Source: Patiria miniata
Lineage: Eukaryota
Length of the DNA: 64,000 nucleotides
Direction: 5' to 3'
Assembly (NCBI RefSeq): GCF_015706575.1
Contig: NW_024037061.1
Coordinates: 979,897 to 1,043,896 of the forward strand
Positions 26,189 to 26,700 of this stretch are shown piece after piece. How positions within the stretch are numbered: the first letter of the stretch is position 1; each line of letters starts with the position of its first letter. The position numbers and the translations under genes are program-made. Below the pieces are notes generated by a model. The model ran no database searches. It was not told the DNA's origin and saw only the letters and a program-made list of their open reading frames with translations.

Positions 26189-26375
26189 GACGATGAGTTT
26201 GCAGTATACAGCACTGCCCAGCAGCGCATCCGCTACGTGGTTGAGTTCACGCTACCAGGCGACAAACCCATGCTGACGACTGGTCCTATCGGTGACAGTG
26301 AGGGCGCTGTTCATAGCGAAGATGACAGTGATAGTGAAGCTAGCGAGGAGGAGGTTGACAAGATGGGTGTCGTTG
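26189..26375 (+). CDS. PARP4: PARP4 exon 13 (end of PARP catalytic domain, DDEFAVYSTAQQRIRYVVEF, then an acidic linker)
   Basis: Acceptor cttttatcccatag, donor GTAAGC. Phase 0 to 1. Contains a Y-E-Y-I-V-Y-like motif. The 3' end of the exon is tandemly triplicated in the downstream intron. Confidence 0.8.
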
Positions 26376-26700
26376 GTAAGCTTGTGTTCTTAAGCAAGAC
26401 ACTTTACTACAATTGCCTCTCTCCACTCAGGAGTATTAATGGGTACCTGTGAGGGTACGAGGAGGAGGTTGACGAGATGGGTGTCATTGGTAAGCTTGTG
26501 TTCTTAGGCAAGACACTTTACTACAATTGCCTCTCTCCACCCAGGAGTATTAGTGGGTACCTGTGAGGGTATGAGGAGGAGGTTGACAATATGGGTGTCA
26601 TTGGTAAGCTTGTGTTCTTAGGCAAGACACTTTACTACAATGGCCTCTCTCCACCCAGGAGTATTAGTGGGTACCTGTGAGGGTGGAGACCAGATCGTGC
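26340..26700 (+). repeat. Tandem triplication (about 125 bp units) of the PARP4 exon 13 3' end, its donor and a SINE-B fragment
   Basis: gaggaggaggttgacaagatgggtgtcgttggtaagcttgtgttcttaagcaagacactttactac.. is repeated three times with minor changes. Confidence 0.8.

What the first reader, a model, noticed from the sequence alone, without database searches (positions are those of the whole stretch)
26189..26700. Triplication of the PARP4 exon 13 donor region with an embedded SINE fragment
The last 35 nt of exon 13, the GTAAGC donor and about 90 bp of SINE-B sequence are repeated three times head to tail. Each copy carries an in-frame acidic mini-exon (EEEVD.MGVIG) plus a donor, so alternative donor use could extend the acidic linker between the PARP catalytic and VIT domains. 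The structure is also a signature of replication slippage or unequal crossing-over seeded by a SINE.
Basis: seen in the sequence. Interest (0 to 1): 0.5.

Follow-up and report, generated by a model that had tools for sequence, protein, structure and literature searches.

The report
Tandem-triplicated splice donor in PARP4 intron
A 114-base piece spanning the end of one PARP4 exon, its splice donor and a fragment of a mobile element has been copied three times head to tail in this genome only; the extra copies sit in the intron, would truncate the protein if spliced, and look like an ordinary by-product of small tandem duplication, not a way of lengthening the protein.

Summary
The repeat is real. 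It has 3.0 head-to-tail copies of a 114-nt unit at 26344-26685, 93-96% identical with no indels. Each unit holds the last 32 nt of exon 13, a GTAAGC donor and about 76 nt of SINE body. The true donor GTs are at 26376, 26490 and 26604, and exon 14 starts at 27255.

The gene is PARP4-like (PARP catalytic, then VIT, then vWA). Five related loci carry exon 13's end as a single copy ending at the same phase-1 junction. Donor 1 is therefore ancestral and the array is lineage-specific.

The functional idea fails. Extending the exon to donor 2 or 3 reads through in-frame TGA stops at 26450 and 26564. Of about 10 AGs per copy, only one gives an open in-frame 36-nt cassette. It is a disfavoured GAG acceptor behind a purine-rich tract. 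The best-looking acceptor (SINE-borne CCTCTCTCCACYCAG) gives a 59-nt frameshifting cassette.

The exon/SINE breakpoints share at most 1 nt of in-register homology. The first duplication was therefore not SINE-SINE unequal crossing-over.

Verdict: an ordinary, probably neutral or slightly harmful, internal tandem duplication across an exon-intron boundary. No RNA data were available to show which donors are used.

The parts
26189..26375 (+). PARP4-like exon '13' (187 nt, ends in phase 1). It encodes the end of the PARP catalytic domain (DDEFAVY..., catalytic Glu) and an acidic tail.
   Evidence: The frame, and the acceptor AG at 26187-26188, come. The exon is orthologous to single-copy exons in L001, L002, L003, L006 and L007. 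Pfam PARP hit.
26344..26457 (+). Array copy 1: the true exon tail (26344-26375), the ancestral donor GTAAGC (26376-26381) and a SINE body fragment (about 26382-26457).
   Evidence: The donor position is homologous to the ..(A/G)TTG|GT donors of four relatives.
26458..26571 (+). Array copy 2: an intronic pseudo exon tail, a decoy donor GTAAGC (26490-26495) and a SINE fragment.
   Evidence: It differs from copy 1 at 5 of 114 positions.
26572..26685 (+). Array copy 3: an intronic pseudo exon tail, a decoy donor GTAAGC (26604-26609) and a SINE fragment that continues into the flank up to about 26689.
   Evidence: SINE homology runs across the array's right end (GGGTACCTGTGAGGGTGGAGA matches the copies at 15165-15226 and 32560-32760, both on the - strand).
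26450..26452 (+). In-frame TGA in copy 1 (repeated at 26564-26566 and 26678-26680). It terminates any read-through from exon 13 to donor 2 or 3.
   Evidence: All three TGAs are in frame 0 relative to 26189.
26416..26430 (+). SINE-borne acceptor-like site CCTCTCTCCACTCAG (also at 26530-26544 and 26644-26658 as CCTCTCTCCACCCAG). Paired with the next decoy donor it would define a 59-nt cassette that shifts the frame.
   Evidence: Upstream pyrimidine fraction is 0.74. The predicted product stops at the start of exon 14 (..WVSLI*).
26454..26489 (+). The only open in-frame cassette candidate (36 nt, GYEEEVDEMGVI; its twin is at 26568-26603). It lies behind a GAG acceptor with a poor pyrimidine tract.
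   Evidence: Pyrimidine fraction is 0.47, and -3 is G.
26376..27254 (+). Intron 13 (879 nt). It is 275 nt in L002 and roughly 720-810 nt in L001 and L003, in each case without the array.
27255..27385 (+). Exon 14 (131 nt), the start of the linker/VIT region: (D)LSDVQSIEDPLSKVQ...
   Evidence: Against L002 it shows 13 synonymous and 1 nonsynonymous codon differences. The junction ..VV-D-LSDV is colinear with annotated coral PARP4 (..SV-D-LSDV).

Best explanation
This is a lineage-specific internal tandem duplication that spans the exon 13 / intron 13 boundary of a PARP4-like gene.

Origin. Ancestrally the locus read: exon 13, then GTAAGC, then a SINE body fragment of about 80 nt lacking both head and tail, then the rest of the intron. 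A 114-nt segment running from 32 nt inside the exon to a point inside the SINE fragment was duplicated by a non-homologous event, such as replication slippage or template switching, with no more than 1 nt of in-register microhomology. The array then grew to three units, most simply by re-duplication or unequal exchange between the first two units. Both internal junctions share the same ..GGGTA|YGAGG form, and copies 2 and 3 share a derived base.

Consequence. Copy 1 remains continuous with the exon and carries the ancestral donor. Splicing from 26375 to 27255 gives the orthologue-like protein. Copies 2 and 3 are intronic passengers that carry intact decoy donors and a purine-rich GAGGAGGAGG tract. 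Any use of those donors is expected to be unproductive, giving an in-frame TGA or a frameshift. The array is therefore most likely neutral or mildly deleterious intron growth, not a source of protein isoforms.

Basis. Shown: the structure, the frames, the stop codons, the single-copy state in relatives, and the lack of breakpoint homology. Inferred: the order of events, which donor is used, and selective neutrality.
For: - Structure and copy divergence.
- Gene identity: PARP 3.1e-27, VIT 2.5e-37, VWA_3 5.5e-18 in the spliced model. Homologues are annotated as PARP4.
- Ancestral single copy: exon 13 ends once, at the same phase-1 ..TTG|GT junction, in L002 (intron 275 nt), L001, L003 and L006. 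The Lottia PARP4 locus also has single-copy exon 13 and 14 equivalents and no array there.
- The donor 1 product is colinear with annotated orthologues, and none of them has a repeated acidic unit.
- The exon tail is not SINE-derived: 21 alignments to SINE heads, none significant, lowest p 0.066.
- SINE homology is continuous across the right end of the array and stops at about 26689.
- Breakpoints share only a G, or GAG one base out of register.
- Stops and frameshifts for every alternative splice path except one weak GAG acceptor.
- Downstream exons are intact and constrained: exon 14 shows 13 synonymous against 1 nonsynonymous difference from L002; VIT and vWA give near full-length Pfam matches; all homology-detectable exons up to 33.5 kb are open.
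- Analogous arrays in relatives show the extra copies decaying. In the L001 array at 2054-2498, copy 3 has lost its donor (CAG|ATATGA). In L003 the second exon-14 copy has no acceptor and an in-frame TAA.
Against: - No transcript data exist for this species in any accessible collection, so donor usage is not observed.
- All three donors are identical from -32 to +50 or more. In mammalian assays, identical strong 5' splice sites at least 45 nt apart splice almost wholly from the intron-proximal site (PMC3413131). That rule would favour donor 3 and an unproductive mRNA, which sits awkwardly with 'neutral'.
- All three decoy features (donor, GAR tract, SINE acceptor-like site) are still intact after 4-7% divergence. 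With only 9 variable sites, this is not evidence of selection.
- Copy number could not be checked in another assembly.
Confidence: 0.7

Rival explanations
1. One reading: the extra copies are used as alternative donors or in-frame acidic mini-exons that lengthen the PARP-VIT linker by units of EEEVD.MGVIG.
For: The period of 114 is 38 codons, so the frame at each donor is preserved. The exon-like 32 nt of copies 2 and 3 still reads EEEVD[E/N]MGVIG. One AG per copy (exon starts 26454 and 26568) would give an open in-frame 36-nt cassette, and using both gives ...MGVVGYEEEVDEMGVIGYEEEVDNMGVID.... The linker varies in length among orthologues.
Against: Straight exon extension hits TGA at 26450 and 26564. 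The only productive acceptor is a GAG with 47% upstream pyrimidines, and it competes with much better CAG sites 23 nt upstream that shift the frame. No orthologue or annotated isoform shows a repeated unit. Of the four substitutions in the exon-like parts of the copies, three are nonsynonymous, so there is no sign of constraint.
Confidence: 0.04
2. A splicing decoy or poison-exon module. The duplicated strong donors, each preceded by a GAGGAGGAGG enhancer-like tract and a SINE-borne CCTCTCTCCACYCAG acceptor, are recognised by the spliceosome. Either the intron-proximal donor is chosen or 59-nt cassettes are included. Part of the PARP4 pre-mRNA is thereby diverted to PTC-containing, NMD-targeted products, which lowers or regulates expression.
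For: There are three identical TTG|GTAAGC donors at 114-nt spacing. Published assays show intron-proximal preference for identical strong 5' splice sites at least 45 nt apart (PMC3413131). The acceptor-like sites have the highest pyrimidine content in the region (0.74) and a TTTACTACAAT branch-like motif about 20 nt upstream. The predicted products are frameshifted, with a stop at the start of exon 14.
Against: There are no RNA data. An exon-definition argument from general knowledge, not tested here, favours the 187-nt exon ending at donor 1 over 301- or 415-nt versions. The intron from donor 1 to the acceptor-like site in the same copy would be only 55 nt. Downstream exons remain constrained, so productive splicing cannot be rare. 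Comparable arrays in relatives are decaying, not conserved.
Confidence: 0.2
3. Assembly artefact: a single-copy or two-copy region falsely expanded, or haplotypes joined in tandem.
For: Copy number could not be cross-checked. No other contig of this species was found.
Against: The three copies are mutually distinct (5, 8 and 5 substitutions, no indels) with a consistent 114-nt register. Artefactual expansions usually give near-identical copies. A 342-nt array is spanned by single long reads, and its unit-specific variants would anchor short reads. Similar diverged arrays occur independently in contigs of relatives from different projects.
Confidence: 0.04
4. The whole 114-nt unit is SINE-derived. 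On this view the end of exon 13 and its donor were recruited from the first unit of a SINE-internal tandem array like those at 23604-23895 and 25277-25640.
For: The same SINE family forms internal tandem arrays of 125-145 nt period nearby. One local alignment (the SINE copy at 32560-32760 on the - strand) ran about 30 nt into the exonic part.
Against: The exon tail plus GTAAGC shows no significant similarity to any SINE head (21 tests, lowest p 0.066). SINE-free relatives have an exon 13 tail of the same length and phase with a similar sequence (window GAGGAGGTTGACAAGATGGGTGTCGTTG|GT against L002 GAGGAGGGAACCAAGTCAGGCACAATTG|GT).
Confidence: 0.01

Closest known systems
Internal (intragenic) tandem duplications that include exon-intron boundaries (Gao & Lynch 2009, PNAS 106:20818, as cited in PMC4974935)
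   Same: A short head-to-tail duplication inside one gene. The unit contains part of an exon plus adjacent intron with a splice signal. It is derived relative to orthologues. It adds spare splice sites.
   Different: Here the array has three units, embeds a SINE fragment, and leaves the coding sequence unchanged when the first donor is used. I could not read Gao & Lynch directly, so the comparison rests on how PMC4974935 describes it and on my own knowledge.
Intron gain by tandem duplication of an AGGT-containing segment (Rogers 1989; ATP2A1, Hellsten et al. 2011, PMC3265369; potato RdRp, PMC4974935)
   Same: A tandem duplication supplies duplicated splice signals. In the potato case the duplicate also took in parental intron plus exon sequence.
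   Different: No new intron is created here. The duplicates lie inside a pre-existing, conserved intron and only lengthen it. The duplicated piece carries a donor, not a matched donor/acceptor pair that restores the reading frame.
Competing identical 5' splice sites in tandem (experimental constructs; Hodson et al. 2012, PMC3413131)
   Same: Identical strong donors separated by more than 45 nt upstream of one 3' splice site. This locus is a natural three-site version of that arrangement.
   Different: Those are mammalian minigenes with short introns. Here the organism is an unidentified invertebrate-like metazoan, the intron is about 650-880 nt, and use of the downstream sites would be unproductive.
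Exonisation of SINEs (for example Alu-derived cassette exons; own knowledge)
   Same: A SINE fragment in an intron offers a pyrimidine tract plus CAG that could act as a 3' splice site next to a donor.
   Different: The donor comes from the duplicated host exon, not from the SINE. The predicted cassette is 59 nt and shifts the frame. No transcript evidence exists.

Membership tests
Internal tandem duplication across an exon-intron boundary | Head-to-tail direct repeats within one transcription unit | tested here: met
   TRF gives 114 x 3.0 at 96%. The register is exact at 114, 114.
Internal tandem duplication across an exon-intron boundary | The unit contains both exonic sequence and the adjoining intron with its splice site | tested here: met
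   32 nt of exon 13, then GTAAGC, then 76 nt of intron. The exon is defined by frame, Pfam and orthologues.
Internal tandem duplication across an exon-intron boundary | Derived state: orthologues have one copy | tested here: met
   L001, L002, L003, L006 and L007 are all single copy at this junction.
Rogers-type intron gain by tandem duplication | The duplication creates a new intron whose removal restores the original coding sequence | tested here: not met
   The intron position is conserved in all five relatives, including Lottia. The duplicates lie within the old intron.
Productive alternative 5' splice sites (in-frame exon extension) | The extension length is a multiple of 3 | tested here: met
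   114 and 228 nt.
Productive alternative 5' splice sites (in-frame exon extension) | The extension is open in the exon's frame | tested here: not met
   TGA at 26450 and 26564, both in frame 0.
Productive alternative 5' splice sites (in-frame exon extension) | Use of the sites in mRNA | not testable with these tools
   No transcript-derived sequence of this species is in the searched collections.
SINE-derived cassette exon (exonisation) | The SINE sequence supplies a splice site flanking an included exon | tested here: inconclusive
   The acceptor-like CCTCTCTCCACYCAG lies 59 nt upstream of decoy donors 2 and 3. Inclusion has not been observed, and the predicted product is frameshifted.
tRNA-derived SINE (the repeat embedded in the unit) | Dispersed multi-copy family with a pol III A/B-box head, body and tail | tested here: inconclusive
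   There are 9 homologous intervals: 5 other loci, the three array fragments and a weak match at 11041. Full copies show a GGTTCGAATCC-like B box. ARAGORN and Rfam do not call these heads as tRNA. The array fragment lacks both head and tail. The superfamily could not be assigned, because the consensus sequences are only in figures.
PARP4 / vault PARP | PARP catalytic domain followed by VIT and vWA domains in one protein | tested here: met
   Pfam PARP, VIT and VWA_3 hits in that order in the spliced model. The best homologues are annotated PARP4.
PARP4 / vault PARP | N-terminal BRCT domain; C-terminal MVP-interaction region; vault association | not tested
   There is only a homology match to homologue N-termini at 17925-18404. 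Candidate C-terminal exons gave no Pfam hit.

The most novel reading that the evidence does not exclude
The triplicated donor region works as a natural splicing decoy or poison-exon module. Three identical strong donors, each with a GAR enhancer-like tract and a SINE-borne acceptor, would divert a sizeable share of PARP4 pre-mRNA into PTC-containing products, making this lineage a natural PARP4 hypomorph or giving it a regulated unproductive-splicing switch. More broadly, short (about 110-190 nt) tandem duplications over exon-intron junctions recur in PARP4 of related species (window exon 13; three or four exons in L001; exon 14 in L003). That hints at a clade-wide mutational habit that repeatedly seeds decoy splice sites.
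Probability: 0.15. Interest if true: 0.4.

Novelty: new member of a known kind. Interest (0 to 1): 0.2.

Why it matters
As it stands, this is a clean example of how introns grow and acquire spare splice sites through small internal duplications. It also warns gene annotators that the repeated exon tails could be mis-called as extra coding sequence. If the decoy donors are used, the locus would be a natural three-way competition between identical 5' splice sites in vivo. That would allow a direct test of the 'intron-proximal site wins' rule against exon definition outside mammalian minigenes. It does not bear on PARP4 or vault biology unless expression is measurably affected.

Tried and rejected
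- Whole unit derived from the SINE, with the exon tail recruited from a SINE array. Rejected by shuffle-controlled alignments to SINE heads and by SINE-free orthologues with the same exon tail.
- The SINE continuing far downstream of the array to a 'GCGCTTTGAG' tail-like motif near 27170. The alignment of 26690-27253 to a full-length copy scored 39 against a shuffled mean of 32 +/- 5, which is not significant.
- A hairpin-prone SINE core stalling replication. Single-strand DNA folding z-scores ran from -1.07 to +0.16, so there is no support.
- Finding the same species elsewhere to count copies. The exact 25-mer and a codon-degenerate exon-14 pattern both gave 0 hits in metagenome contigs. Protein searches returned only relatives at or below 68% (exon 13) and 59% (597-aa model) identity.
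- Translated-reference Pfam scans failed because of stop codons. They were replaced by tblastx-guided exon finding.
- My first splice-path table used exon 14 = 27254 and was out of frame. It was corrected to 27255.
- Assigning the SINE to a published superfamily (MetaSINE, Nin-DC, V, CORE). The consensus sequences are not in the searchable text.
- Identifying the organism. The paper search for assembly GCA_013332995 found nothing. The best protein identities are spread over corals, molluscs and fishes.
- Pfam on putative C-terminal exons near 44-45 kb gave no hits, so the gene's 3' extent beyond 33.5 kb is unknown.
- The Oculina PARP4 locus could not be retrieved.

Full report
**1. What is in the sequence**

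Between 26344 and 26685 the + strand carries three head-to-tail copies of a 114-nt unit.
- TRF reports period 114, 3.0 copies, 96% matches, no indels and score 626.
- The repeat finder puts the copies at 26344-26457, 26458-26571 and 26572-26685.
- The copies differ from one another at 5, 8 and 5 positions, all substitutions.

Each unit consists of three parts:
- 32 nt that in copy 1 are the last 32 nt of a coding exon (CGAGGAGGAGGTTGACAAGATGGGTGTCGTTG).
- An identical GTAAGC donor.
- About 76 nt homologous to the body of a dispersed repeat.

The unit is 114 nt, however, not about 131. The donor GTs are at 26376, 26490 and 26604, not near 26500 and 26625. Exon 14 begins at 27255, behind the AG at 27253-27254.

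**2. The gene**

Conserved open frames were found by tblastx against related contigs and spliced into a 597-aa model. That model hits Pfam PARP (3.1e-27), VIT (2.5e-37) and VWA_3 (5.5e-18), in that order. Its best database relatives are annotated PARP4 from corals, molluscs and vertebrates, at 50-59% identity. By homology the gene runs from about 17.9 kb to at least 33.5 kb.

Exon '13' (26189-26375) encodes the end of the catalytic domain plus an acidic tail. Exon 14 (27255-27385) leads into VIT. The array therefore sits exactly at the 5' end of the intron that splits the PARP-VIT linker. I could not verify the exon number. The organism is not identified; no close annotated relative exists in the collections searched.

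**3. The embedded repeat**

The intronic part of the unit matches a family with 5 other loci in the window (9 homologous intervals in all, including the three array fragments), about 3.1% of the sequence. Full copies, for example 19315-19600, have a B-box-like GGTTCGAATCC head, the body TTGTGTCCTTGGGCAAGCCACTT..CTCTCCACCCAGGAGTA.AAATGGGTACC, and a tail.

In the array, homology starts 6 nt after the donor GT. It continues across the right edge of copy 3 to about 26689. Beyond that point the alignment is no better than shuffled sequence. So before duplication the intron held a SINE fragment of about 80 nt, without head or tail, hard against the donor. I could not assign the family to a published SINE superfamily.

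**4. Is the exon tail itself SINE-derived?**

The same family forms internal tandem arrays nearby (23604-23895, 145 nt x 2; 25277-25640, about 125 nt x 3). One alignment also crept into the exonic 32 nt. I therefore tested whether the whole unit might be a SINE array whose first unit had been exonised.

It is not. The exon tail plus GTAAGC shows no significant similarity to any SINE head in 21 shuffle-controlled tests (lowest p 0.066). SINE-free relatives also have an exon tail of the same length, phase and similar sequence (see section 5).

**5. Comparative evidence**

Short ORF-like fragments in the protein collection led to contigs from related organisms. The exon 13 / intron 13 state in each relative is:

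| Locus | Source | Exon 13 ends | Intron 13 |
|---|---|---|---|
| L002 | TARA scaffold | ..ACAATTG\|GTCAGT | 275 nt |
| L001 | ENA contig | ..ACAGTTG\|GTAAGA | about 720 nt |
| L003 | NCBI contig | ..CAAATTG\|GTAAGA | about 800 nt |
| L006 | TARA scaffold | ..TCTGTTG\|GTGAGA | not fully covered |

The exon tail is present once in each, and no SINE sits at the donor. The Lottia PARP4 locus (L007) also has single exon 13 and 14 equivalents and no array there.

Donor 1 at 26376 is therefore the ancestral donor, and the triplication is specific to this lineage. Splicing from donor 1 to exon 14 gives ..KMGVV-D-LSDVQSIEDPLSKV.., colinear with annotated coral proteins (..SV-D-LSDVMSVVDPLTKV..). No orthologue has a repeated acidic unit.

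**6. What the extra copies could do to the mRNA**

I enumerated every path (correcting the off-by-one).
- **Exon extension to donor 2 or 3.** Frame is kept by length (114 or 228 nt). The extension reads ..MGVVGKLVFLSKTLYYNCLSPLRSINGYL*, with in-frame TGAs at 26450 and 26564.
- **Cassettes ending at donor 2 or 3.** Of about 10 AGs per copy, all but one give a frameshift or a stop.
- **The one exception** is exon start 26454 (or 26568). It yields a 36-nt cassette encoding GYEEEVD(E/N)MGVI. Its acceptor is ctgtGAG|G, with G at -3 and 47% pyrimidines upstream. The real acceptors of exons 13 and 14 have 63-68%.
- **The strongest-looking acceptor** is the SINE's CCTCTCTCCACYCAG (74% pyrimidines, with a TTTACTACAAT branch-like motif upstream). 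It defines a 59-nt cassette that shifts the frame and stops at the start of exon 14.

The sequence predicts that nearly any use of the extra copies is unproductive.

**7. Which donor is used?**

This cannot be read from DNA. The three donors are identical over at least -32 to +50.

In mammalian assays, two strong identical 5' splice sites at least 45 nt apart splice almost entirely from the intron-proximal site (Hodson et al. 2012, PMC3413131). That rule would favour donor 3.

Two considerations point the other way:
- From general knowledge, not tested here, exon definition favours the 187-nt exon ending at donor 1 over 301- or 415-nt versions.
- The gene downstream is clearly constrained. Exon 14 differs from L002 by 13 synonymous and 1 nonsynonymous codon changes. 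VIT and vWA are near full-length. All detectable exons to 33.5 kb are open.

I therefore infer that productive donor-1 splicing predominates or at least suffices. I keep a decoy / poison-exon effect as the main rival, at about 0.2.

**8. How it arose**

The left breakpoint (..GAAGCTAG|CGAGGAGG..) lies in unique exon sequence. The right one (..GTGAGGGTG|GAGACC..) lies in the SINE. They share only a G in register, or GAG one base out of register. The first duplication was therefore non-homologous (slippage, template switching or end joining), not SINE-SINE unequal crossing-over.

Both internal junctions read GGGTA|YGAGG, whereas the outer flank reads GGGTG|GAGA. Copies 2 and 3 share a derived G where copy 1 and the SINE family have A (unit position 95). 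This fits a two-step history in which a unit containing the first junction was copied again, possibly by unequal exchange between units. Copy divergence of 4-7% shows the event is not very recent.

The SINE looks like a passenger. Even so, three of the six distinct tandem arrays in the window contain the same SINE core of about 70 nt with different breakpoints, against 3.1% coverage (P about 6e-4, post hoc). The core does not fold unusually well as single-stranded DNA. The association is unexplained and may reflect SINE variants that were already internally duplicated when they transposed.

**9. How ordinary is it?**

Related contigs show the same kind of lesion elsewhere in PARP4.
- L001 has arrays of 186 x 2.6, 150 x 3.0, 166 x 3.9, 109 x 2.4 and 162 x 1.8 over exons that are single-copy in the window. 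Two of them are 'exon end + donor + intron start' units like this one.
- L003 has a second, decayed copy of exon 14 plus its donor.
- In these arrays the extra copies are degenerating. One donor has mutated to AT in L001, and the L003 copy has an in-frame TAA and no acceptor.
- Enrichment of the L001 arrays over exons is marginal (P = 0.04), and that contig has low coverage.

The phenomenon matches the known class of internal gene duplications that take in exon-intron boundaries (Gao & Lynch 2009, cited in PMC4974935). It is related to, but is not, Rogers-type intron gain (PMC4974935; PMC3265369).

**10. Verdict**

This is a real, lineage-specific 114-nt x 3 tandem duplication of the exon 13 donor region with a SINE fragment as passenger. 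It is a new example of a known kind. The protein-lengthening interpretation is not supported. The likeliest effect is none, or a modest loss to unproductive splicing. Interest is low (0.2). The open point is donor choice, which needs RNA data.

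Noticed in passing
L001 521-1004, 2054-2498, 3502-4150, 13720-13981, 17640-17938; L003 1016-1150 and 1209-1343: In related species' PARP4 loci, short diverged tandem arrays (period 109-193 nt, 1.8-3.9 copies, 75-92% matches, mostly substitutions) cover exons or exon-intron junctions that are single-copy in the window. Some extra copies have lost splice sites or gained stops. Enrichment over exons in L001 is marginal (P = 0.04). L001 is a low-coverage (2.31x) contig.
   Followed up: partly
window 23604-23895 and 25277-25640: Two copies of the same SINE family carry internal tandem duplications (145 nt x 2; about 125 nt x 3) with breakpoints different from the exon-13 array. 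Three of the six tandem arrays in the window involve this SINE core, although the family covers only 3.1% of the window (P about 6e-4, post hoc). The core shows no unusual single-strand folding.
   Followed up: partly
window 5274-5345 (-), 20580-20652 (+), 28108-28180 (+): Three tRNA-like sequences were found (ARAGORN: tRNA-Ala, anticodon GGC; Rfam tRNA 55-62 bits). They share about 35 nt of upstream and about 30 nt of downstream conserved flank, so they are copies of a second short tRNA-related repeat family of about 140 nt, not ordinary tRNA genes. Two of them lie in PARP4 introns.
   Followed up: partly
window 40437-43328 (+), with tandem repeats at 40810-41343: A 963-aa open frame lies in a GC-rich (49%) block. 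It is rich in Pro/Gly/Ser and contains in-frame repeats of 168 nt x 2.7 (SGGLFGGPSL..GRQPP..). It may be the variable C-terminal part of PARP4 or a separate gene. The available homologues are too short to tell, and candidate exons beyond it gave no Pfam hit.
   Followed up: partly
window 33635-33810 and 62506-62609: Two further two-copy tandem repeats (90 nt x 2.0 at 95%; 51 nt x 2.0 at 84%) were seen. They have no evident relation to exons or to the SINE.
   Followed up: no
L007 6418-6979 (Lottia gigantea PARP4 locus): A 161-nt x 3.5 tandem array (82% matches) lies inside the Lottia PARP4 gene, away from the exon 13/14 junction. It shows that intragenic arrays of this size class are not confined to the window's clade.
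   Followed up: no
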